Below, one piece after another: positions 4,680 to 50,835 of a DNA stretch of 64,000 nucleotides. A model generated the notes under the pieces. The model was not told where the DNA came from. It did no database searches and saw only the letters and a list, made by a program, of their open reading frames with translations. Location: NCBI GenBank assembly GCA_002415345.1, contig DHXV01000001.1, forward strand, positions 332,517 through 396,516, given 5' to 3'. Positions within the stretch are counted from its first letter, which is position 1. The number at the start of each line of letters is the position of its first letter. Source of the stretch: Patescibacteria group bacterium UBA5147 (GTDB lineage: Bacteria > Patescibacteriota > Saccharimonadia > UBA4664). A program made the translations under genes and the position numbers.

Positions 4680-5520
4680 TGCTTCGTAATTCCACCGACT
4701 GACCTTCTTGTAACGGCGTAATGCGCGTGGCGGTTGCCGCCAGTTGCGACACCGTAAGGTCGTCTCTCTCCGTTGCTAATTTAAGTATATCGTTCGGGTT
4801 GGCTGTTGTCACGCTTGTGCTTATCTGCCGATTGTCGGCAACCTTGGGGGCCGGGCGACCGGTCATCTGGTCGATGGCTTCCTGGCGGATATCCACGGCG
4901 GCCTCCTGGATGAGCGAGGCCAGATTCTGCGCCAGAGGACTTTGCTGCAGGTCGAGCATATCGGGGGCCTGGGTTTCGTCGGCGACGTGCGGGGAGGTTT
5001 GGGCAGGTTCCACCAGTCGGTCGGAAACCACGTTCGGCTGGATGATCAGCGCGTCGGAAGCCGCCGAGGGCGGTGCGTTCCAGCCGCGCGAATCGATCAT
5101 GGTCCCGAGCCGCTCCAGCTCGCTGCGAACCTCCCTGGGGTTGCGCTGCGTCTGCTCCACCACCACGGCGTTGGGTTGGATGCGGAAGGAATCCACAACC
5201 TCGTCCTTGCGCCATAACCGTTGCCGCGACTGGGAGAAGTACCCCACCATGGCAATGAGCAATTGCTCAAAGTTCTGGCCGTCGCGCTGATAGAACGCCA
5301 GCAGGAGGAACAAAATGGTGACGGGCGCCGCCATGATAATCATCAACGGAACGACAGCGTGGAGCAGGGCATAACTTAACCCCGCCCACGTCACGCCGAT
5401 GATGGCGTAGATAAACTGCTTGAGCGTCAACGGCCCAAGAATATGGTCTTCGGCCTCAACGTTCTGCGGCACTTTATACTGGCTCATACCCTCTTGCTCC
5501 CTCATTCCACGCCCGCTCAC
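4660..5520 (-). CDS. Membrane protein with two adjacent N-proximal TM helices, possibly VirB3/PrgI-like, and a long C-terminal soluble region.
   Basis: Hydrophobic hairpin FIYAIIGVTWAGLSYALLHAVVPLMIIMAAPVTILFLLLAFY immediately upstream of the virB4 partner gene, the conserved VirB3-VirB4 order. Overlaps the downstream ORF by 20 nt. Assignment by architecture only. Confidence 0.4.
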   Translation of the reverse strand: MSGRGMREQEGMSQYKVPQNVEAEDHILGPLTLKQFIYAIIGVTWAGLSYALLHAVVPLMIIMAAPVTILFLLLAFYQRDGQNFEQLLIAMVGYFSQSRQRLWRKDEVVDSFRIQPNAVVVEQTQRNPREVRSELERLGTMIDSRGWNAPPSAASDALIIQPNVVSDRLVEPAQTSPHVADETQAPDMLDLQQSPLAQNLASLIQEAAVDIRQEAIDQMTGRPAPKVADNRQISTSVTTANPNDILKLATERDDLTVSQLAATATRITPLQEGQSVELRSNGSSSK

Positions 5521-5620
5521 TTTAATAGCGGAACATACTTGAGCTTATTATCGCCTACTTACTATCACCTATCAAGCAATGGGTCATCGTACACCCGGAC
5601 CGGCGGACGTTCAAGCCCAG

Positions 5621-8600
5621 CTAGTTGATGCTGCGGTCGTCGCCTGGTTCATTGGTTTGGTCGCGCGGAGCGAGACGGAGCGACGTACTCGGGCCGTTCG
5701 TTCGACTGCCAGGAGTGGTCGGCAAGATAATGGTCCCGTAGTCGGGGCGCCCGCCGGATTGCTTCAACCTTTCGGAAAGTGTAAAACTGGGTCGCTCCGA
5801 CGTTACATTCGGGATGTCAGTAACTGATGAACCTTGGTTGGGCGCAGTTCGCCACGTCATGGTTGCCGGCGGACTCATCGTAGTCGGCGCAGGTTCGGGT
5901 GTGCCTCCGCCAGGTACGTTAATAGTCACGTTAGTATCATAGGCATTGCTCGACGAAGGATTATGGTTGGGCAGGATCAAATTAGGATTTGGATTAACGC
6001 TAGTAGTAGGAATAACCAGGCCGTTTGGCTGGGTTGACCAACCGCCCGAGACGCCGCTTCTGGCTTGGGCAGCATTGGGATTGGGGCTGGTATTTTGATT
6101 GTAAGGAATGTTTTGGGTCGGCGCAGGGCCTGCAGAGACACCCGATGGAGCCGAGCTGGCCGCGGGTGCACTACCCCCAGCACTTGTCCCTGATCCGCCT
6201 CCACTCGGGGTACTCCCGCTAGGTCCAGAGCCGCCACCCACTGGTCCGGATCCTGTGACCGCACCGCCGGCCCTTTGGGCCGCTAGTAAATTGGCTTTCT
6301 CAACCGGGGTATGAACGCTTACTCCGATATCTGTGCCAAGTTGGTTCAGGGTATCTCGGGTATCATTGTTGATATTGTTAACGCCGGTCGTTGATCCGTT
6401 GATACCGACTACTACGTTTCGCATATTCTCATCAAAGGCATCCAGCTGCTGTTTTGCTGCAACTTCGCCCGTACTTCCGATAGCGGATACGTGCGCAGCC
6501 TTCAATGCGTTGCGACGGTTGACCATAGCTTGTGCGCCGACGTTATCAAGCCGGACGCCTTTCTCGGCCTTGATATTATCGTAAGCAGCTGCACCTCCGG
6601 GAGAGACTAAATGGGGTGCCTTTTCTTTTAGGCCGGAAAAATTCCCCGCCGTTGCCTTAATCCACTCGGAATTAGTCGTGTCGTTGCCATATTTATTGGC
6701 TAGGACGGTCTGTAGTTTTCCGGTATCTTCAATCGCCGCCAGCTTAGCCGTAGCAGCCCGGCTTGTGAACTGACTTGATTTGGTATCTAACGCCTTAGCT
6801 AACAGTGTCGACGGATTATCATTCTCTAGCAGGCGACCGGCCGCTGTCAGCTGATCTTTATCATTCTTTTCAAGAGCTCCTGCCATACGGTTAGGATCGA
6901 TTTTGTCGATACTCAGACCCGCCTGTTGTTGGGCTAATTTACGCTGGGTCCCCTGCTTTAAACGACCAAAACCGGTAGTTGCGGGACCCGCCTGATTTAA
7001 GGAATTGATTTTGGAAAGTCCCTTCTGCTGGCGGTTGTAAGCCCGGTTCTGTTTCATCTTGTCCTGCGCCCCGGAGATGGCGCTGTGGCCACGTTTGGCA
7101 TGGCCACTAATAAAGCCATGGCCCATCATCAAGGCGCTACCGGCAAATTTGAACGTTGCCGGAATAAGGAACAAGGCAATGATTGGCGCTAGGGCAGAAC
7201 CGAGCTTAGTCCAGTTTGAGGCATCCCCCGAACCTGTAATGACGACACTGAAGAATTTGGATGTCGCAAGCAATAGGACAATAATCGGGTACATTAGCAG
7301 CAGCTTGACAAGGGTTTCGCGCCACATCTTGAAGTACTTGTCGGTATTGGGCAGGACCCAAAGTAGAAAGGCTATCGGAGCTATAATAATCAGGAAGTCT
7401 ATGAGCATGATGCGAATCTGAAGAGTAATAAAGACCGCTATCAAACCAATAATAGCTGCGGCCAGGGCTAGTAAAAGCGGTATGGCAAACTCCGCGAGGA
7501 ATGGCGCGAAAGTCGCTGCCGCAACACCCGCACCAACACCCGCGCCGACTAATTCAACGGCGCCCGCGATTTGCATAACCCCTTCATTACCGGTTTTTAC
7601 CCCTCCGGGGATTGCTGCGGCCATGAGACTGTCGATACCCATACCCAGCACATTAGAGATGTCCACCATGAAGCCTACCAAAAGGTAGGAGAATTGAACG
7701 AGAACGGCTGCCGCTATGAGGCGGGGAAGGATTTTTTTGACCGTGTAATTATCGAGACCCATACTGGTGCCAAAAATAACAATAAAGAATATAAGCACAA
7801 AAAAGACGTCCGCTAGATTCCTAAACACAGCCCAGGCAGGCTTTAGGCCTGTGTCGCCAGACGCTAGGGGCGTGAACTTCAGTTGGTTCTTGACGACGCC
7901 GGTAAGATTGTTAACTGCACCTTGGGCTATGCTAATGACCGGACATAACAACCAGGTAAGACTGTCGACGGAGCAGACGGCTTGGACCTCGCTGGGTGTT
8001 GGATCTGTTGTCGGAGCAGCAGGAGCGTTGTTCTGACTGAGATTTAATGTATTTGACCCGGCCGCCAATACTACGCCGGGTTTGGTAATTTTTACGGGGA
8101 AGGAGGCCAGTCCTGGGCCTTCGCTGTACGCGCCATCAATAGTGACAGTGTAAGTTCCGGGCTTCAAATTTCCGAGAGTAAAACTGCCATTTGTGTTCAA
8201 GGGGACTTTTTGGGTTCCGCTCGGCCCGCCGGAGACGGTAAGGTAACCCGAGGTTACCGGCATGTCTTTTTTTAGGCCCTGGTCAAAAAAAGTGGCGGTG
8301 CCGGAGAGCGTTGCGGTCTTGGCTACGGCTGCCAGTGTCTTAACAGGTATCGTAACCTGGTCTAATTTGCCACCGACCGTACATAGATTCCGGCTGGGTC
8401 CACCGAGAAGCGTACCCCAGGTAAGAGAACTGGTGGGTGAACCCGTTCGGTCGGAAACTGAGACATTAAATAGGACGGTGTTATCGCATCCGCCGGAACT
8501 GCTTACCTGAGTGTTGTTTATCGGGCCGGATTTCCAGGTCTTCGACTTGGCATCATAGGTTAAGTTGACGGTTACGGGTTGTTCATTTGTGTCGCGTCGC

Positions 8601-27019: not shown

Positions 27020-28060
27020 ATGAAAATTGCTTCGCAAGACGAAATTAACCGTTGGGACGAGCTGGTCGCGGCCAATCCTGACGGCGGCAACGCTTTGCAG
27101 ACGCTTGCCTGGGGTGACTTCAAAGGCCGCTGGGGCTGGGAGCCTCGCCGCTACGTGGCGACGGTTGGCGGGCGCCAGGTGGCAATCCAGTTTTTGGTCC
27201 GCCGCATCCCATTGTTCGGTGAGGTCTGGTACTGCCCCAAGGGGCCGGGCGTTTCCAAGCAGTCCGACTTGATCGAGCTCGTCGCCCAGATCAAGGCTGC
27301 CGGCACCGGCGCCGCGTTTGTGAAGCTTGAGCCCGAAGTGCTGGAATCGTCGGTCGACCGGAAAAAGATGACTGCCGCTGGTCTGGTCAAGGGCGCCCGC
27401 GACCTGCAGTCCAAATCCACGATATTCATCGACCTGACATCGGGCGAAGAAGGCGTGCTCGCCAGCTTCAACCAGAGCGCCCGACGTAATATCCGCAAAG
27501 CCGAAGCCGGCGGCGTCCAGGTAGAGCCGGTCGAAGCTACCGCTGCCAACCTGGAAACCATGTTCCAGCTTATGAAAGCCACCGAGGCCCGCGCCGATTA
27601 CGGCCTGCGGCCGGCCGCCTATTTCAAGGACTACTGGAAGAGCCAGATCGATGCTGGCCAGGGCCAGCTGTTGTTCGCGACCCACGAGGGCGACGTCTTA
27701 GCCGGATTGTTCGTCACCTTCATTGGTACGCGCGCCTGGTATAAGGATGGTGGTTCTTTTGCAATTAAACGCGAGCTCCAGCCGAGTTACGCCATGCAGT
27801 GGGTAACTATGCGCTGGCTGATGCAGTGCGGAATTACGAGCTACGATACGGTGGGCGTGCCTAATCCGGATGAAATCGGCATCGGTAACGCACGCCAGGG
27901 CCTGTACGATTTCAAATCTAAGTTTAATCCGGAAATTACCGAGTTTATTGGCTGCTGGGATGTGCCAATCGATGCGCGCAAGTACGGCCTGTGGCTCAGA
28001 ATCGGCGAGCGCGCCGCCAGTAAGCTTGCCAATCGGTCGCCGGAAAAGTTCTTATATTAA
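27020..28060 (+). CDS. FemAB-family aminoacyltransferase (paralog 2).
   Basis: Paralogous to 25192-26181 (QTLAWGDFKGRWGWEPRR...VWYCPKGPGV). Confidence 0.65.
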   Translation: MKIASQDEINRWDELVAANPDGGNALQTLAWGDFKGRWGWEPRRYVATVGGRQVAIQFLVRRIPLFGEVWYCPKGPGVSKQSDLIELVAQIKAAGTGAAFVKLEPEVLESSVDRKKMTAAGLVKGARDLQSKSTIFIDLTSGEEGVLASFNQSARRNIRKAEAGGVQVEPVEATAANLETMFQLMKATEARADYGLRPAAYFKDYWKSQIDAGQGQLLFATHEGDVLAGLFVTFIGTRAWYKDGGSFAIKRELQPSYAMQWVTMRWLMQCGITSYDTVGVPNPDEIGIGNARQGLYDFKSKFNPEITEFIGCWDVPIDARKYGLWLRIGERAASKLANRSPEKFLY

Positions 28061-29552: not shown

Positions 29553-30446
29553 CTAGAGCGTATCGAGGGCCAAGGTGGTGCAGCGGATACTGCCTCCACC
29601 TTTCCACAACTGTTCGATCGACCGCTCGATCACGATCATTCCTTCTGCCCGCAGGGCTTCGGCCATGTCGGGGACGCCCGAGGTAATAATCACCGTGGTA
29701 CCGTCGGAAACCAGGTTCAAGGCGGCTTTTTGGGCCTCTTCCAGGCTGACAGGGATAATCCGCAGGTCGCGGCGCGCGGCCAGAAGGAGCTGGCTCTCGT
29801 CGTCGAGCGTAGCCAGGCAGACGGCAATGACGCCGGGCTTGATTATGCCAATCGAGAGGTCGATGTCATACCACTGGCCGCTGACGCTTTGCACCGGAAT
29901 GATTTCATAACCCAGCGTGTCGGCGACGAATTTATCGGAATCGGGGTGGCTGCGCCAGCCGCGGCCTTTGATGAGCGCCCCCGTTCCGGTGGGCAGGGCG
30001 TCGCCCTGGCCACTGAACAGAACAGGGCAGGTAAAGGTCTCAAAGCCGTGGGCCCGGAGCCAGGCTCCGGCCAGCTCCACCTCGCCGGCGCGTTCCTTGG
30101 GCAGGTTGGCGAGCACGGCTTTTTTGCCCCGGATAAGCGCGGTATTGGCCGTATAAACCATGTCCGGCCAGGCGGGATCGGGCTCGATGAAGTGCAGTTT
30201 GCGGCCGAGGGCCTCATGAGCTCCTACGATAGCTGCGTATTCGGGAGCTAGTTTTTCGGGATCAGGCTGAGACGAGGTGTGCATGTAGGGATTGATCTGG
30301 TAGGCGATCCGAAAGAAGTCGGGCCGGCACATAAGTAATTCTTGGTTGTACAAAAGGGGGCTCCCGTAACAGATTTGGTAACTCCAAACATTATAACCTG
30401 ACGGAGCAAAATGGTACGATAGGCTTATGAATATTACCGAATCCAT
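29553..30446 (-). CDS. Amidinotransferase-superfamily enzyme (DDAH / arginine- or agmatine-deiminase-like guanidino-group-modifying enzyme); true start probably the internal Met (MCRPDFFRIAYQINPYM).
   Basis: C-terminal GGGSIRCTTLAL catalytic-Cys motif and an N-terminal F(R)IAYQINP motif. Confidence 0.6.
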   Translation of the reverse strand: MDSVIFISLSYHFAPSGYNVWSYQICYGSPLLYNQELLMCRPDFFRIAYQINPYMHTSSQPDPEKLAPEYAAIVGAHEALGRKLHFIEPDPAWPDMVYTANTALIRGKKAVLANLPKERAGEVELAGAWLRAHGFETFTCPVLFSGQGDALPTGTGALIKGRGWRSHPDSDKFVADTLGYEIIPVQSVSGQWYDIDLSIGIIKPGVIAVCLATLDDESQLLLAARRDLRIIPVSLEEAQKAALNLVSDGTTVIITSGVPDMAEALRAEGMIVIERSIEQLWKGGGSIRCTTLALDTL

Positions 30447-46124: not shown

Positions 46125-47129
46125 ATGTACGAGTCGATGCACAACCACACGGTTATTTCCGATGGCCTGCAATCCCATCTTGAGGTCTTGGAATCTGCCC
46201 ACGAGGCCGGTTTCAAGGTCATAGCTTTTACCGACCACGATGTCTTTCCGGATGATGCCATCATGGGGCAGCTCAAAGGCTATGACGGCCCGGTAACCTG
46301 GACCCTGGGCATTGAATTGTCATGCGGTTTACCGACCGAGCTGGGAGGCACCGACGAAGGCAATCTGCATGTTTTGGGGTACTTCTGTGACCCACAGAAC
46401 TCGCAGCTGCGGGAATACCTCGCGAAGCTGGGTTCAAGCCGGATTGTGCGGCTGGGGCGGCAGGTAAAACATATTCAATCTCTGGGGTTTGACCTCACTG
46501 TTGAGGATTGTCTGGCGGTCGCCGGTATTGGCGCGCCGGGATCGCACCATGTGGTTACGGCTCTTAAACTTAAGCCGGCGAACTTGAATCGCATTGATGT
46601 GCTAAGAAGCGAATTTGAGGCGGCGTCCAAAACCGATACCGACCTTGCCCGCGATTACGCCGTCATGATGGACCGCGGCCCGGTGCAGTATCCGTACGCT
46701 TTATTCATGAAGGGCAGCTCCTTCAAGCCCATGCCCGAGGACACGCTCGGAAGCGGCATGGTAGACTTTGACGATGCCGTGCGACTAATCCGTGGAGCTG
46801 GCGGCATCGCCGTGTTGGCGCATTGGTACTTCCATGAAGACCAGTTCCCCCGCGCCGCACTGAGCACGGTTATCTCGGACGGCCGCATCGACGGTATTGA
46901 GACCGCCGTATATAACCGCCAGATCGGGACGGCGGATTATTCCGCGCAACATCAATATTTGGCCGCCTTGGCCGCCCGCCTTGGCTGCGCCACAGTCATA
47001 GGAATCGACGGCCACTACCCGGACGATTTTCAAGTTTTTCTGGACAGCGGCCTCGCCGGCAGCACCGTCGGGCAGTTCCAGGCGCTAATCGACCGTTTTA
47101 AACCAGCACTAATCATAGGTAATCTCTAA
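46125..47129 (+). CDS. PHP-domain metal-dependent phosphoesterase (TrpH/YciV-like), paralog 1.
   Basis: PHP motif I HNHTVISDG and motif II AFTDHD. Confidence 0.7.
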   Translation: MYESMHNHTVISDGLQSHLEVLESAHEAGFKVIAFTDHDVFPDDAIMGQLKGYDGPVTWTLGIELSCGLPTELGGTDEGNLHVLGYFCDPQNSQLREYLAKLGSSRIVRLGRQVKHIQSLGFDLTVEDCLAVAGIGAPGSHHVVTALKLKPANLNRIDVLRSEFEAASKTDTDLARDYAVMMDRGPVQYPYALFMKGSSFKPMPEDTLGSGMVDFDDAVRLIRGAGGIAVLAHWYFHEDQFPRAALSTVISDGRIDGIETAVYNRQIGTADYSAQHQYLAALAARLGCATVIGIDGHYPDDFQVFLDSGLAGSTVGQFQALIDRFKPALIIGNL

Positions 47130-48139
47130 TGTACGAATCGTTACACAACCACACTTTGGCCTCGGATGGCTCCCAAACCTACTTGGAGGTGCTGGAAACG
47201 GCCAAGGACCTGGGTTTTGGAACCGTGGCTTTTACCGACCACGATTCGCTGCCCGACGAGAAGGCGCTCAACCAGTTGGCCTTCTACGAAGGCCCGGTAA
47301 AGTGGCTGTTAGGCTGCGAGATTTCCAGCGGTCTGCCCAAGGAACTTGGGGGCGAACCCACGGGGTCGCTGCACATCCTGGGATTGTTTACCGATCCTGA
47401 CAACGAAGCTTTGCTCGAGCATTGCCGCAAGGCAAACACAGCCCGGACGGAACGCATGGAGTTGATGGTGAAAAACCTGCAGCGAATCGGCCTGACGATA
47501 TCGGTCGAGGATTGCCTGCACGAGTCCAGCGGCGAAAACGTCGGTCGGCGGCATATTGCCCAGGCTATCTTTGCCCACCCTGAAAACGAGGAGGTAATCG
47601 ACCGTATCAAGGACGAAATGGAGGTTGCAGCACGCGACGACGCCGGAGTGGCGATGCAGTATATGCGCCTGCTGGAGCGCGACCGCAGCGACTACCCGTT
47701 CCGGCTGTTCCTGGCTCCCGAGGCCTACATCGGCGACGTGTATGTCGACTACTTGTATTGGGTTGATATGGACAGCGCTGTAAAGCTGATCCGAGACGCC
47801 GGAGGTATCGCAATCTTGGCCCACTGGTTTACTATCAAAGACTCGATGAGCCTGGAGATGGTTGAGGGCATGCTGAGTGACGGCCGGCTGGATGGCATCG
47901 AAATCATGGGTAAGCCTGGCAACGGCGACGCCGTCCGCGCCGCGCCCGCCATGAAGGAACTGGCCGAAAAAACCGGATGCGTCGCGACTTACGGCATCGA
48001 CGGCCATAGTTACGGGCAGATGCGCGGCTTCGCCAGTGATCGTACGCTGGCTGAAGCAACGGTCGGTCAGACGGCAGCTATTATTAAGCGTTTCAAGCCG
48101 GATCTTGGCTGGACCAACTTCCCTGACGGACTCAAATAG
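47129..48139 (+). CDS. PHP-domain phosphoesterase, paralog 2 (TAATG coupling with paralog 1).
   Basis: HNHTLASDG and AFTDHD. Collinear with paralog 1. Confidence 0.7.
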   Translation: MYESLHNHTLASDGSQTYLEVLETAKDLGFGTVAFTDHDSLPDEKALNQLAFYEGPVKWLLGCEISSGLPKELGGEPTGSLHILGLFTDPDNEALLEHCRKANTARTERMELMVKNLQRIGLTISVEDCLHESSGENVGRRHIAQAIFAHPENEEVIDRIKDEMEVAARDDAGVAMQYMRLLERDRSDYPFRLFLAPEAYIGDVYVDYLYWVDMDSAVKLIRDAGGIAILAHWFTIKDSMSLEMVEGMLSDGRLDGIEIMGKPGNGDAVRAAPAMKELAEKTGCVATYGIDGHSYGQMRGFASDRTLAEATVGQTAAIIKRFKPDLGWTNFPDGLK

Positions 48140-48219
48140 CTTTTCACTTGTAATGCTTTAAGCGTAAGCAGTATTATTGTCATAATACTCCGCATTACAT
48201 CAGGTGAAGGGAGTCGCAC

Positions 48220-48540
48220 ATGTCCAAAAACGCCCGTATCAGTCAGCACGCCATGCAATCGCAATGGAGCGGCCCCACGCATAGAGATGTATTGAATGCC
48301 AGCGGGCGTCGCAACTCAATTATCCGCTTTGTCCGCACCGGCCGTGGTCCCCATATGGAGCTCCTAATCCAGGTTGGCCAAGCCTTCACTGGTAACGACA
48401 ACAAAATCGTCGTTTTCACCGGCCGCACGGTCGACGGCAAATACACCATCAAAGGCGTTCTTGATGGCACAGCTCGCGGCCCGGCGCTAGCCACAATTGA
48501 GCGTACACCGTTCAAATGGGTTGGTCGCCGCGCAAGTTAA
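48220..48540 (+). CDS. Hypothetical protein (106 aa).
   Basis: ORF only. Confidence 0.4.
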   Translation: MSKNARISQHAMQSQWSGPTHRDVLNASGRRNSIIRFVRTGRGPHMELLIQVGQAFTGNDNKIVVFTGRTVDGKYTIKGVLDGTARGPALATIERTPFKWVGRRAS

Positions 48541-48775
48541 TGTTTCTCGGCGCTCAAGTTCGTCACTCTAGCCACACAGGCTCAACATCCCTTATCCACT
48601 GCCCGCCGCCAGGCGGGCCTTATTTTGTTTACGTAAGGTTGATTAGTAACCACAATCCGTGCCTGCAAATGCATCGGCATTGGCTGCATTGTAGTTTACC
48701 CGAGCAATAAAATCTGCTATAACAATAACCTGCGAGACCGTCTCGTTGTATCCTCACAAATTGGAAGTGATTTGG

Positions 48776-48928
48776 CGTGCCCGACATATGCAGACATTGC
48801 AAAACGAGGCTTCAGAAATGTCCTGATTGCGGTGGATGGGGTCATACCACATCCTTTCTTTCAAGGTTCACCTGCAATACGTGCGGCGGTTCAGGCAAGC
48901 TGTGCCCGACGCATGGAAAAAACACGTA
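48776..48928 (+). CDS. Mini-ORF (about 50 aa, GTG start) encoding a DnaJ-type zinc-finger repeat peptide: VPDICRHCKTRLQKCPDCGGWGHTTSFLSRFTCNTCGGSGKLCPTHGKNT.
   Basis: Two exact CxxCxGxG motifs (CPDCGGWG, CNTCGGSG) plus CxxC and CxxHG. GGAAG about 9 nt upstream. Overlaps the track ORF 48772-48963, which is in another frame with a low-complexity product. Coordinates approximate (+/-2). Confidence 0.45.
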
Positions 48929-48996
48929 ATGCCCGCCCGCCCAATTTCTCAAAGAATTCCTAACCAAGAAGCCCTACCGTCAGGTAGGGCTTAGTT

Positions 48997-50835
48997 ATGC
49001 CGCACAGTTTCGTATTTTGTTCGCGCTTTTCAGATAAAGGGTATAATCGGGCTATGGATGAAGTGGCGGAAATCAAGAACCGGCTGGAGATTACGGAGGT
49101 GGTGGCAAATTACCTTCCGCTCAAGCAATCCGGGCGGAACCTGAAGGCGGCGTGTCCGTTCCATCAGGAAAAATCCGCCAGCTTCATGGTGAGCCCGGAG
49201 CGGGGGATATATCACTGCTTCGGTTGTAATGAAGGCGGCGATATATTCAGCTTCGTCATGAAGATGGAGGGGCTGGAGTTCCGCGAGGCGTTGGAAAAGC
49301 TGGCGCGTCAGGCAGGAGTCGAGCTTAAAGCCCGCAAGGGTGAAAGCGCCGACCTCAACCGGCGCCGGACGCGGATTTATGAGGCCACGGAGCTGGCTGC
49401 CCGTTATTTCCAGGCTTCGCTCGTACAGAATCCCAATGCGCTTGAGTACGTCATCAAAAAGCGGCATCTCAACCGTGAAACCGTCAAAGCCTTTCAAATT
49501 GGCTATGCCCCGGACTCTTGGAACGCCCTGACCGACTTTCTGACTAAAAAAGGTTTCAGCCATGAAGAAATGCTGGAGGCCGGCCTGGCGGGTCAAAAAG
49601 AGGGGCGGAACACCGTTTATGACCTGTTCCGCGGTCGGCTGACCTTTACTATTTGCGACCGAGACGGCCGGCCGATCGGCTTCACCGCCCGGGTATTGGA
49701 CGACAGCCTCCCTAAATACCTAAATACCCCCCAAACTCCGTTGTATGACAAATCCAGCGCCATTTTTGGGCTCCATCTGGCCCGCGAAGCAATTCGTGCC
49801 GGCGATGAGGTCGTCCTCGTTGAGGGCAATATGGACGTGGTGGCGAGCCATCAGGCAGGTGTGCTACAGGTAGTAGCGACGTCGGGCACGGCTTTGACGT
49901 TGGACCAATTGCGCACGCTCAGCAAGCTCACCAAAAACATTAAACTCGCCTTCGACTCGGACCGCGCCGGACTGGCCGCTACCGAGCGGGCCATCGAGCT
50001 GGGCCAAAAGCTCGGACTCACGCTCAGAATGGTCGAAGTCCAGGGGGCCAAGGACGCTGACGAGCTGATCCAACAGAGTCCCCAGGCCTGGAGTGAGGCG
50101 ATTGCCAGTGCCAAATACATTATCGACTATTTGATTGACCGCTTTGAACACGATTTTGACCTGACGACCTCAATCGGCAAGCGGCAGTACGCCGACCGTT
50201 TGGCGGCCAATCTTCGCCGCCTCGGCGACCCGGTTGAGCAGGACCACTACGTAAAGGTCTTGGCGGGCAAACTTGATATCGATGAAGACGCCATCAAAGC
50301 CAAGATCAACCAAACGGACAAGGCCGCCTATGCTCCGGCCGGCAGCCCCGGTCCAGTGAGCGAAAGCAACGAACCGTCGCCAAGGGCTAAAATTCAGGCG
50401 CAAGGCAAACCCAGCATGAGCGTCCAACAGGAAGAGGCCGTTCTGGCTATTACTTTGGCCTACCCTCTGACCAGATTGACGCTGCAGGATTTGACGGTCG
50501 ATTGTTTTACCGCGAAATCGCGGCAGGAAATATATGATTTGCTTTGTTCCAAGAGCCAGGATTCCGGCGATATGATCGCATCAAACATGAGCGAGTACGG
50601 CAATTACGCCAAGGAACTGCTGATGATTGCCGAAAAAGAGTACGGACATATGGAAGAGGACAAACTGGCGTTTCAAGCCTTTGAGACGGCCAGCGTGGTT
50701 TTGAAAAACCACTATAAAGCCCTACAGAACGAAATCATCATCCGGTTGCGCGAGGCCGAGCAACAAAAAGATGACGCACTGATTAAGAAACTGAGCCTGG
50801 AATATCAGGAAATTCTCAACAAAAGCGCCGAATGA
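48997..50835 (+). CDS. dnaG: DNA primase DnaG; probable true start at Met20 (49054, MDEVAEIKNRLEI), with TATAAT 7 nt upstream, so possibly leaderless.
   Basis: Zinc-binding CPFHQEK...HCFGCNEGGD and TOPRIM EGNMDVV...DSDRAG. Confidence 0.9.
   Translation: MPHSFVFCSRFSDKGYNRAMDEVAEIKNRLEITEVVANYLPLKQSGRNLKAACPFHQEKSASFMVSPERGIYHCFGCNEGGDIFSFVMKMEGLEFREALEKLARQAGVELKARKGESADLNRRRTRIYEATELAARYFQASLVQNPNALEYVIKKRHLNRETVKAFQIGYAPDSWNALTDFLTKKGFSHEEMLEAGLAGQKEGRNTVYDLFRGRLTFTICDRDGRPIGFTARVLDDSLPKYLNTPQTPLYDKSSAIFGLHLAREAIRAGDEVVLVEGNMDVVASHQAGVLQVVATSGTALTLDQLRTLSKLTKNIKLAFDSDRAGLAATERAIELGQKLGLTLRMVEVQGAKDADELIQQSPQAWSEAIASAKYIIDYLIDRFEHDFDLTTSIGKRQYADRLAANLRRLGDPVEQDHYVKVLAGKLDIDEDAIKAKINQTDKAAYAPAGSPGPVSESNEPSPRAKIQAQGKPSMSVQQEEAVLAITLAYPLTRLTLQDLTVDCFTAKSRQEIYDLLCSKSQDSGDMIASNMSEYGNYAKELLMIAEKEYGHMEEDKLAFQAFETASVVLKNHYKALQNEIIIRLREAEQQKDDALIKKLSLEYQEILNKSAE

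What the first reader, a model, noticed from the sequence alone, without database searches (positions are those of the whole stretch)
48776..48928. Unannotated 50-aa DnaJ-type zinc-finger mini-protein upstream of dnaG
The frame encodes C-x2-C, C-P-D-C-G-G-W-G, C-N-T-C-G-G-S-G and C-x2-H-G: two perfect CxxCxGxG repeats as in the DnaJ cysteine-rich domain, enough ligands for two Zn sites. It is below the 60-aa cutoff and uses a GTG start, so the ORF track shows instead an overlapping low-complexity frame (48772-48963) that is probably spurious. Free-standing DnaJ-CR-like mini-proteins are rarely annotated.
Basis: seen in the sequence. Interest (0 to 1): 0.6.

Follow-up and report, generated by a model that had tools for sequence, protein, structure and literature searches.

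The report
Uncalled 50-aa zinc-knuckle mini-protein gene
A real but never-annotated gene for a 50-residue, cysteine-rich (probably two-zinc) mini-protein lies just upstream of the primase gene of a Saccharimonadia (TM7) bacterium; it belongs to a sparse, uncharacterised small-protein family only distantly related to the DnaJ zinc-finger domain, and nothing ties its function to primase.

Summary

This arrangement is not chance: it appeared in 0 of 300 simulated windows. The frame is conserved in free-standing 49-59-aa proteins from genomes of 31-72% GC. In all of them C5, C15, C18, G20, C33, C36, C43 and H46 are invariant. pN/pS is 0.35 in this frame and 1.3-1.5 in the other two frames.

The overlapping 63-aa frame has no relatives and carries stop codons in 11 of 23 family members.

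Gene callers missed the ORF in every public copy of this genome.

A profile of the family matches only the E. coli DnaJ cysteine-rich domain among solved structures (E 8e-7). The peptide itself is below Pfam's cut-off (15 vs 32.7 bits) and has no J-domain. It is therefore DnaJ-CR-like, not a DnaJ-CR member.

The dnaG linkage is positional. The ORF has its own flanking hairpins, and dnaG has its own promoter and appears leaderless. The nearest relatives carry a different small gene in the same slot.

Function is unknown. My best guess is a zinc-stabilised protein-binding module. Interest is modest.

The parts
48777..48929 (+). Coding sequence (GTG start, TAA stop) of the 50-aa Cys7His mini-protein. 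Ligand pairs: C5/C8, C15/C18, C33/C36, C43/H46.
   Evidence: family conservation; pN/pS
48760..48771 (+). ATTGGAAGTGAT, holding a Shine-Dalgarno-like GGAAG (48763-48767) 9 nt before the GTG. The same 12-mer precedes the homologous GTG in L011. GGAAG-type sites precede other genes of the window.
   Evidence: read directly
48695..48723 (+). Tentative promoter, identified by hand: TTTACC, 17 nt, TATAAC. The consensus scanner did not report it because the last base of the -10 is C.
   Evidence: read directly; one search found no site here; inference only
48969..48992 (+). 10-bp hairpin AAGCCCTACC-GTCA-GGTAGGGCTT, 40 nt after the stop, with a poor U-tail. It is a probable weak terminator closing the mini-gene unit. 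DNA homology to the nearest relatives resumes right after it.
   Evidence: L002 and L011 have strong canonical terminators at the same place
48601..48618 (+). G+C-rich hairpin plus T-run: terminator of the upstream 106-aa ORF (48220..48540). It separates that gene from the mini-gene.
49015..49056 (+). dnaG's own promoter and start (not part of the mini-gene, but it bounds it). Conserved TTTTGTTCG (49015-49023), TATAAT (49042-49047), and ATG 49054 six nt later, suggesting a leaderless dnaG mRNA.
   Evidence: 58 of 67 relatives have TANNNT ending 5-9 nt, mostly 6 nt, before the ATG
48772..48963 (+). Overlapping 63-aa ORF. Judged spurious.
   Evidence: no Pfam hit; no relatives; not in the protein collection; this frame has stops in 11 of 23 family members and pN/pS 1.5

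Best explanation
Window 48777..48929 is a genuine, so far uncalled protein-coding gene. It encodes a 50-residue protein built from four metal-ligand pairs: CxxC, 6 residues, CxxCxGxG, a beta-hairpin, CxxCxGxG, then CPxH. It belongs to a sparse, uncharacterised family of free-standing 49-59-aa proteins found in very different bacteria, and that family is distantly related to the cysteine-rich zinc-finger domain of DnaJ. The most likely architecture (inferred) is the nested DnaJ type. The two inner CxxCxGxG knuckles would clamp one zinc (Cys4) at the base of a hairpin. The outer CxxC and CxxH would close a second site (Cys3His), giving a small rigid zinc-stabilised module. The most likely mode of action (inferred, weakly) is binding a partner protein. 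Precedents are the other stand-alone CxxCxGxG modules, namely anti-TRAP, BSD2 and the zinc modules of lambda Q and UvrA. An enzymatic role is unlikely. In this Saccharimonadia genome the gene is a separate small transcription unit. It sits between the terminator of the upstream gene and the promoter of an apparently leaderless dnaG, in a slot where related genomes carry other small genes. The dnaG neighbourhood is therefore positional, not evidence of a role in priming.
For: ORF and motifs. Not chance. Homologues: exhaustive phmmer over 1.84 billion proteins returned free-standing 50-59-aa proteins with 41-52% identity over nearly the full length, E 1.7e-5 to 8.8e-4. A profile search added two more. 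A ligand-spacing DNA pattern found 30 metagenome loci that all encode such peptides. In the 18-sequence alignment C5, C15, C18, G20, C33, C36, C43 and H46 are invariant, and C8, G40 and P44 are at least 90% conserved. Host GC spans 0.31-0.72. Purifying selection: pN/pS is 0.35 on codons not fixed by the search pattern, against 1.5 and 1.26 in the shifted frames. Syntenic homologues lie directly upstream of dnaG in L002 and L011, with a conserved SD-like 12-mer plus GTG in L011 and terminators after each. DnaJ-CR relation: family profiles hit only 1EXK (E. coli DnaJ CR) among PDB sequences at E 8.4e-7 and 8.2e-6. Six of 9 members touch PF00684, best E 3.6e-8. The top Foldseek PDB ranks are DnaJA2, the DNAJA3 zinc finger, anti-TRAP and UvrA, none significant. 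Nested topology: L002's 35-aa version keeps only the two inner knuckles, a complete Cys4 site, and the AF2 model (pLDDT 76.6) places a beta-hairpin at residues 23-32 between them. Separate unit: hairpins on both sides. dnaG has TATAAT 6 nt before its ATG in the window, and 58 of 67 relatives have a TANNNT box 5-9 nt before theirs. The nearest relatives lack the gene, and homology resumes right after the hairpin.
Against: There is no expression evidence of any kind. The codon-usage log-odds score is as poor as for non-coding frames (-0.48 per codon; GC3 0.54 against 0.70 in genes), though Cys-rich composition and possible foreign origin explain much of that. The start is GTG with an imperfect SD, the promoter was only identified by hand, and the downstream hairpin lacks a good U-tract. 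The peptide alone does not reach any curated family threshold. The window copy lacks the family's C-terminal G-x-W. Metal binding is not guaranteed: Haloferax HVO_2753 has four C(P)XCG motifs but binds only one zinc, and AlphaFold predicted a zinc-binding tetrahedral arrangement of the cysteines even at the site that does not bind zinc (PMC11241148). No neighbour is conserved across the family, so the protein-binding role rests on analogy only.
Confidence: 0.8

Rival explanations
1. Same real gene, but the product is a small nucleic-acid-binding regulator (DNA or RNA), like the haloarchaeal zinc-finger micro-protein Brz, rather than a protein-binding module.
For: The window peptide is basic: 7 Lys/Arg against 2 Asp/Glu (counted directly). 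Small C(P)XCG zinc-finger proteins such as Brz regulate transcription (PMC2253796). Actinobacterial members lie convergent to a GerE/LuxR regulator gene.
Against: Charge is not conserved; for example the L096 peptide has equal numbers of acidic and basic residues. No helix or recognised DNA-binding element is predicted. The nearest structural and sequence relatives (DnaJ CR, anti-TRAP, BSD2) bind proteins.
Confidence: 0.2
2. Same real gene, but it acts as a stand-alone chaperone-like holdase or thiol-disulfide redox module, as described for DnaJ-CR-like zinc-finger proteins (DnaJ CR itself, plant BSD2/ZnJ2 and LQY1-type proteins).
For: The only significant solved-structure relative is the DnaJ CR domain. 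Plant and algal proteins with a DnaJ-like Zn-finger domain and no J-domain are described as chaperones (PMC5818400). BSD2 appears among the fold matches, though weakly.
Against: Fifty residues leave little surface besides the metal knuckles. The gene is accessory, absent from the nearest relatives, which is unlike a housekeeping chaperone. No chaperone genes are adjacent.
Confidence: 0.15
3. The ORF is not translated. It would be a chance open frame, a decayed fragment of a dnaJ-like gene, or the true product is the overlapping 63-aa frame or an RNA.
For: Codon-usage score is non-coding-like. Gene callers never called it. The start is GTG.
Against: The motif arrangement is never seen in simulations. 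Homologues from genomes of 31-72% GC start and stop at equivalent positions. pN/pS is 0.35 in this frame only. The 63-aa frame is not conserved. There is no Rfam match at E<=1.
Confidence: 0.04
4. It is a cis-acting leader peptide or upstream ORF, for example cysteine-sensing attenuation, controlling dnaG-rpoD through the downstream hairpin.
For: It has seven Cys codons, a hairpin 40 nt downstream, and a position directly upstream of dnaG on the same strand.
Against: dnaG has its own conserved promoter with TATAAT 6 nt before the ATG, downstream of the hairpin. The amino-acid sequence (Gly, Pro, His, spacing) is conserved, not just the Cys codons. Family members outside Saccharimonadia are not next to dnaG. 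The nearest relatives do without it.
Confidence: 0.02

Closest known systems
DnaJ/Hsp40 cysteine-rich (CR) zinc-finger domain (Pfam PF00684; E. coli DnaJ CR, PDB 1EXK)
   Same: It has CxxCxGxG knuckles and four ligand pairs, enough for two metal sites. It has a hairpin between the inner pairs. The family profile matches 1EXK at E 8e-7 to 8e-6, and it is the only PDB sequence at E<=0.01 with the 18-sequence profile.
   Different: It is free-standing at 50 aa, with no J-domain, G/F region or C-terminal domains. Only two of the four motifs are full CxxCxGxG. The last ligand is His. Spacing is much tighter (6 / 14 / 6 residues between pairs). The peptide is below the Pfam gathering score (15.2 vs 32.7 bits).
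Anti-TRAP (RtpA) of Bacillus (PF15777, NF058604; PDB 2BX9, 3LCZ/3LD0)
   Same: It is a free-standing peptide of about 53 aa built on a DnaJ-like CxxC...CxxCxGxG zinc knuckle pair that works by binding another protein. Anti-TRAP ranks 5th and 7th in the fold search (TM about 0.5, rmsd 2.2-2.9 Å over 36 columns). The 35-aa L002 variant, with its single Cys4 site, resembles it most.
   Different: Scores are far below the family cut-offs. The window protein has a second, outer ligand shell. There is no trp or T-box context. Oligomerisation is unknown.
Uncharacterised mini-protein family: WP_006330001.1 (Gordonia rhizosphera, 'hypothetical protein'), P0004, P0011, P0015, P0021, P0022, P0024 and metagenome loci L093-L122
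   Same: Length is the same, and ligand spacing matches, identically in the 14-residue subfamily (inner gap 14-22 across the family): C-x2-C-x6-C-x2-C-x-G-x12-C-x2-C-x2-[ST]-G-x2-C-P-x-H. Identity is 31-52%. This is the family the window gene belongs to.
   Different: The window copy has two perfect CxxCxGxG motifs, whereas most members have CxxCxGQ in the first. It lacks the C-terminal G-x-W and lies upstream of dnaG. No member has a known function.
Haloarchaeal C(P)XCG zinc-finger micro-proteins (e.g. HVO_2753, HVO_0758, Brz)
   Same: They are free-standing proteins under 70 aa built from C(P)XCG motifs. HVO_2753 has four motifs in one small protein. They are often missed by annotation (PMC11241148, PMC10716476, PMC2253796).
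   Different: No sequence homology was tested or claimed. They are archaeal. [quoted passage not shown]

Membership tests
DnaJ cysteine-rich domain (Pfam PF00684 DnaJ_CXXCXGXG) | Score at or above Pfam's gathering threshold (32.7 bits) | tested here: not met
   15.2 bits, E 0.027 for the window peptide. Six of 9 family members match at E<=0.1, best 3.6e-8, so the link is family-level only.
DnaJ cysteine-rich domain (Pfam PF00684 DnaJ_CXXCXGXG) | Four CxxCxGxG repeats | tested here: not met
   There are two full repeats (C15-G22, C33-G40). The first pair is a bare CxxC and the fourth is CxxH followed by G.
DnaJ cysteine-rich domain (Pfam PF00684 DnaJ_CXXCXGXG) | Inserted in a type I J-protein (J-domain, G/F region, C-terminal substrate-binding domains) | tested here: not met
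   The ORF is 50 aa, bounded by TGA 48768-70 and TAA 48927-29. Homologues are also 49-59 aa.
DnaJ cysteine-rich domain (Pfam PF00684 DnaJ_CXXCXGXG) | Two Zn(II) bound in nested topology (motifs 1+4 and 2+3) | not testable with these tools
   This is only inferred. L002 retains just motifs 2+3, and AF2 places a hairpin between them.
DnaJ cysteine-rich domain (Pfam PF00684 DnaJ_CXXCXGXG) | Detectable sequence homology to a solved CR domain | tested here: met
   Family profiles A3 and A4 against PDB sequences: 1EXK at E 8.4e-7 and 8.2e-6. The match rests largely on the repeated knuckle motif.
Anti-TRAP / RtpA (PF15777, NCBIfam NF058604) | Score above the curated cut-offs (32 and 65 bits) | tested here: not met
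   PF15777 E 8.2, 6.9 bits. There is no NF058604 hit for the window peptide; L011 scores 12.8 bits.
Anti-TRAP / RtpA (PF15777, NCBIfam NF058604) | Single Cys4 zinc site in about 53 aa | tested here: not met
   The window peptide has eight ligand positions. Only the L002 variant has four.
Uncharacterised Cys7His mini-protein family (WP_006330001.1 and relatives) | Free-standing 49-59 aa with C-x2-C-x6-C-x2-C-x-G ... C-x2-C-x2-[ST]-G-x2-C-P-x-H | tested here: met
   All ligand columns are invariant or at least 90% conserved in the alignments. The DNA pattern built from them matches the window once.
Uncharacterised Cys7His mini-protein family (WP_006330001.1 and relatives) | Significant full-length sequence similarity | tested here: met
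   phmmer against 1.84 billion proteins: P0004 E 1.7e-5 (52% identity, residues 5-48), P0011 2e-4, P0014 3.5e-4, P0015 3.6e-4, P0021 8e-4, P0022 8.8e-4. tblastx of their contigs hits the window only in this frame.
Uncharacterised Cys7His mini-protein family (WP_006330001.1 and relatives) | C-terminal [GE]-G-x-W after the His | tested here: not met
   The window ends H46-G-K-N-T-stop. Most members end HGxW or HEGxW.
Haloarchaeal C(P)XCG micro-proteins | [quoted passage not shown] | tested here: met
   CPDCG (15-19) and CNTCG (33-37). This is a descriptive class (PMC11241148), not a homology family, and homology was not tested.

The most novel reading that the evidence does not exclude
The slot just upstream of the leaderless dnaG-rpoD genes in this Saccharimonadia clade would be a maintained cassette position for fast-evolving, exchangeable small proteins. 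The candidates are the type A Cys7His peptide, a type B Cys7His variant, and a helical peptide. The zinc mini-protein would be a trans-acting modulator of the replication/transcription initiation machinery (primase or sigma-70), or an effector used in the epibiont-host interaction. A member of the family occurs in Gordonia (Actinobacteria).
Probability: 0.08. Interest if true: 0.6.

Novelty: new variant of a known kind. Interest (0 to 1): 0.35.

Why it matters
The finding adds a concrete, evolutionarily supported example to the under-annotated small proteome of a candidate-phyla-radiation bacterium. Gene callers missed this 50-aa gene in all four or five public copies of the genome. It also defines a compact Cys4 + Cys3His version of the DnaJ-type zinc knuckle, present as a stand-alone protein in very different bacteria, with no curated family of its own among the libraries searched and no known function. 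That makes it a tractable target for zinc-stoichiometry, NMR and partner-finding experiments. It does not overturn anything and does not by itself open a long-standing question.

Tried and rejected
- The word-indexed protein search found nothing, with the peptide alone or with the 3-peptide alignment. Only the exhaustive phmmer search and a family profile found relatives.
- My first DNA pattern had two N too many and matched nothing. It was corrected.
- The codon-usage log-odds test was uninformative. All six frames of the region score like non-coding, because of Cys-rich composition and low GC3.
- Curated libraries (Pfam, PHROGs, NCBIfam) gave only sub-threshold generic zinc-finger hits for the peptide.
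- There was no Rfam family in 48100-49200.
- There was no match in plasmid or phage records with two different family members, and none in viral contigs with the ligand pattern.
- Foldseek against PDB and BFVD gave no match at E<=0.001. The ranking was plausible: DnaJ zinc fingers, anti-TRAP, and phage 'DnaJ-like' or 'anti-TRAP domain' proteins.
- Neighbour clustering across about 35 family loci found no conserved partner gene. The only recurring one is a convergent GerE regulator plus a 244-aa ORF in the Gordonia-like clade.
- The leader-peptide, DnaJ-pseudogene-fragment and metallothionein readings were considered. The first two are rejected for the reasons given under rivals. The metallothionein reading is rejected because no Metallothio_Pro hit appeared and the knuckle spacing is regular.

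Full report
**What is there.** Window 48777..48929 (+) is an ORF of 50 codons with a GTG start and a TAA stop. It encodes MPDICRHCKTRLQKCPDCGGWGHTTSFLSRFTCNTCGGSGKLCPTHGKNT.
- The four ligand pairs are as described: C5-x2-C8, C15PDC18GGWG, C33NTC36GGSG and C43PTH46G.
- An in-frame TGA at 48768-70 makes GTG 48777 the only ATG/GTG/TTG start that keeps the cysteines.
- GGAAG (48763-67) lies 9 nt upstream of the GTG. Other genes in the window also use GGAAG-type sites.
- A 63-aa ORF in another frame (48772..48963) overlaps it.

**Is it more than chance?** Yes.
- A single CxxCxGxG occurs about 0.8 times per simulated 64-kb window in six frames.
- Two such motifs 5-20 residues apart in one open frame occurred in 0 of 300 simulations.
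- The degenerate DNA pattern for all eight ligands matched once in the window and never in 100 shuffles.

**Organism and neighbourhood.** The downstream genes are dnaG (Zn_ribbon_DnaG, DNAG_N, Toprim, DnaB_bind) and rpoD. Upstream are a TehB-like methyltransferase, two tandem PHP-domain genes and a 106-aa ORF of unknown function. DnaG is 88% identical to that of a Candidatus Saccharimonadia MAG, and the best 80 genome hits are almost all Saccharibacteria/Patescibacteria.

**Is the peptide frame conserved?**
- Among the 80 dnaG loci, two carry a homologous mini-ORF directly upstream of dnaG on the same strand. They are L002 (DnaG 68% identical) and L011 (62%).
  - L011 encodes ...SCRWVTCPDCLGHGYRSNLGGVTTCGTCNGTRTVCTNPTH...
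  - L002 encodes a 35-aa version, MAYKGDCEACNGKGWRSSITGVRNCDVCGGTGKAK, with only the two inner knuckles.
- The conserved Cys and Gly codons differ synonymously among the three (TGC/TGT; GGA/GGT/GGC).
- The 12-mer ATTGGAAGTGAT followed by a GTG is shared by the window and L011.
- The overlapping 63-aa frame matched nothing.

**The wider family.**
- The word-indexed search found nothing.
- An exhaustive phmmer scan of 1.84 billion representatives returned free-standing proteins of 50-59 aa that align over nearly the whole peptide. They are P0004, P0011, P0014, P0015, P0021 and P0022, at 41-52% identity and E 1.7e-5 to 8.8e-4.
- A profile search added P0024 and P0025.
- P0014's cluster includes WP_006330001.1, a 'hypothetical protein' of Gordonia rhizosphera.
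- A DNA pattern encoding only the ligand spacing found 30 metagenome loci, and every one encodes such a peptide, for example MECRKCHSSLYECKYCDGQTKSGPLGGHLTCKTCNSTGWLCPQHEGHWE. It found none in viral contigs.
- In an 18-sequence alignment C5, C15, C18, G20, C33, C36, C43 and H46 are invariant. C8, G40 and P44 are at least 90% conserved.
- The host contigs range from 31% to 72% GC. They resemble the window only in this ORF and only in this frame.
- I measured selection using only codons not fixed by the search pattern, on pairs at least 70% identical. pN/pS is 0.35 in the peptide frame and 1.50 and 1.26 in the two shifted frames. The shifted frames contain stops in 11 and 16 of 23 distinct sequences.

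**Annotation status.** The exact DnaG, 106-aa, PHP and RpoD proteins of this genome are in the 15-billion-protein collection, from NCBI, JGI, ENA and Logan assemblies. Neither the 50-aa nor the 63-aa product is there. The gene table of an identical contig shows an empty gap between the 106-aa gene and dnaG. The gene has been missed by every caller.

**Relation to known families.** The peptide alone reaches no curated threshold.
- PF00684 (DnaJ_CXXCXGXG) scores 15.2 bits against a cut-off of 32.7.
- Anti-TRAP, DnaJ equivalogs and several unnamed PHROGs give E values of 0.002 or weaker.

At family level the link is real but remote.
- Profiles of 9 and 18 members hit the E. coli DnaJ cysteine-rich domain 1EXK at E 8.4e-7 and 8.2e-6. 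With the larger profile it is the only PDB sequence at E<=0.01. Lambda Q and anti-TRAP follow at E of about 0.01 with the smaller profile.
- Six of nine members touch PF00684, best E 3.6e-8.
- An AlphaFold2 model has mean pLDDT 76.6 and a beta-hairpin at residues 23-32.
- Its best Foldseek matches are the DnaJA2 and DNAJA3 zinc fingers, anti-TRAP, the UvrA zinc module, BSD2 and lambda Q.
- Among viral models the best matches are many small phage 'DnaJ-like', 'anti-TRAP domain' or 'CR-type' proteins.
- None of these fold matches reaches E<=0.001.

I therefore describe it as DnaJ-CR-like and do not file it as a DnaJ CR member. It has two full repeats rather than four, a His as the last ligand, much tighter spacing (6/14/6) and no J-protein context.

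**Probable architecture (inferred).** The spacing is symmetric: CxxC, 6 residues, CxxC, 14 residues, CxxC, 6 residues, CxxH. L002 has lost both outer pairs together while keeping a complete inner Cys4 set. These two facts argue for the nested DnaJ-type arrangement, with an inner Cys4 site at the hairpin base and an outer Cys3His site closing the termini. Zinc binding itself is unproven. Haloferax HVO_2753 has four C(P)XCG motifs yet binds only one zinc, and AlphaFold predicted a zinc-binding tetrahedral arrangement of the cysteines even at the site that does not bind zinc (PMC11241148).

**Relation to dnaG.** The evidence points to a separate small transcription unit in a variable slot.
- A G+C-rich hairpin plus T-run (48601-48618) ends the upstream 106-aa gene.
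- A 10-bp hairpin (48969-48992) follows the mini-ORF. The equivalents in L002 and L011 are strong canonical terminators, with fold z-scores of -8.6 and -4.8.
- dnaG has TATAAT (49042-47) six nt before its ATG (49054) and a conserved TTTTGTTCG further upstream. In 58 of 67 relatives a TANNNT box ends 5-9 nt (mostly 6 nt) before the ATG, so dnaG appears to be leaderless with its own promoter.
- The nearest relatives (DnaG 88% or more: L001, L127/L128, L129) lack the zinc mini-ORF and have a different, helical-looking small ORF in the slot. DNA homology to the window resumes at about 48995, just after the hairpin.
- Three further relatives (L003, L005, L007) carry another Cys-rich mini-ORF at the same place: C-x2-C-x6/7-C-x7-H-x2-C-x2-C-x6-C-x2/4-C. 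hhalign aligns it in register with the family at 60% probability, E 8.6e-5.
- Outside Saccharimonadia the family is not next to dnaG. In a Gordonia-like clade it lies convergent to a GerE regulator gene, and elsewhere the contexts differ.
- There is no Rfam match in the region.

**Function.** Nothing here demonstrates a function. By analogy with the other stand-alone CxxCxGxG modules, I consider a zinc-stabilised protein-binding adaptor or inhibitor the most likely role, at roughly 0.35-0.4. The alternatives are a nucleic-acid-binding regulator (about 0.2) and a chaperone or redox module (about 0.15). The leader-peptide, pseudogene-fragment and spurious-ORF readings are each unlikely, for the reasons given under rivals.

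**Verdict.**
- It is a new, uncalled member of an uncharacterised compact variant of the DnaJ-type zinc-knuckle fold.
- It is useful for small-protein annotation and a tractable biochemical target, but not very surprising to a specialist.
- Interest: 0.35.

Noticed in passing
window 49015-49056; loci L001-L080 just upstream of each dnaG start: dnaG appears to be transcribed as a leaderless mRNA throughout Saccharimonadia. In 58 of 67 loci a TANNNT box (mostly TATAAT) ends 5-9 nt (mostly 6 nt) before the ATG, and a conserved TTTTGTTCG lies about 19 nt further upstream. The longest-ORF start at 48997 (612 aa) is therefore probably wrong, and ATG 49054 (593 aa) is the real start. Both versions exist in public gene calls.
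   Followed up: partly
window starts at 27020 (+), 25192 (+), 25121 (-), 26983 (-), 30427 (+): Several other genes in the window also have a TACAAT- or TATAAT-like box (TACGAT at 30427) 6-7 nt before their ATG and no Shine-Dalgarno sequence. Leaderless genes may be common in this genome.
   Followed up: no
L003 5737-5904, L005 about 5500-5661, L007 about 5300-5468 (all + strand, upstream of dnaG): A second type of Cys-rich mini-ORF occupies the same slot in three relatives: C-x2-C-x6/7-C-x7-H-x2-C-x2-C-x6-C-x2/4-C, about 53-55 aa with the starts I assumed for L005 and L007. The three are conserved among themselves and align in register with the window family at hhalign probability 60%, E 8.6e-5.
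   Followed up: partly
L001 5688-5864; L127 136-435; L128 39-338; L129 2226-2474: The nearest relatives of the window genome carry a different small ORF in the slot upstream of dnaG. It is about 58-90 aa and looks helical and charged (...AVSEYSSDSKRRYKIKDAA...). The slot appears to be a hot spot of small-gene turnover. The resemblance between the L001 ORF and the L127/L129 ORFs was judged by eye only.
   Followed up: partly
window 48220-48540 (+): This 106-aa ORF has no Pfam hit. It is conserved in L001 (46% identity) and L129, has been called in public assemblies, and is followed by a terminator at 48601-48618. Its function is unknown.
   Followed up: partly
window 46125-47129 and 47129-48139 (+): Two tandem paralogous PHP-domain (TrpH-like phosphoesterase) genes have overlapping stop and start codons. 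Relatives mostly show one copy next to dnaG.
   Followed up: no
L081 6001-6165 and L083-L088 6001-6231: In a Gordonia-like actinobacterial clade the mini-protein gene is convergent with, and slightly overlaps, a 205-aa GerE/LuxR-type regulator gene, and a conserved 244-252-aa ORF follows. In L083-L088 the other side holds CHAT-protease and DUF87/nSTAND-type ATPase genes.
   Followed up: no
window 48541-49053: The region holding the mini-gene has lower G+C (0.48-0.51) than the flanking genes and the window as a whole (0.55-0.57). The mini-ORF's GC3 is 0.54 against 0.70 in the window's long genes. This is compatible with recent acquisition.
   Followed up: no
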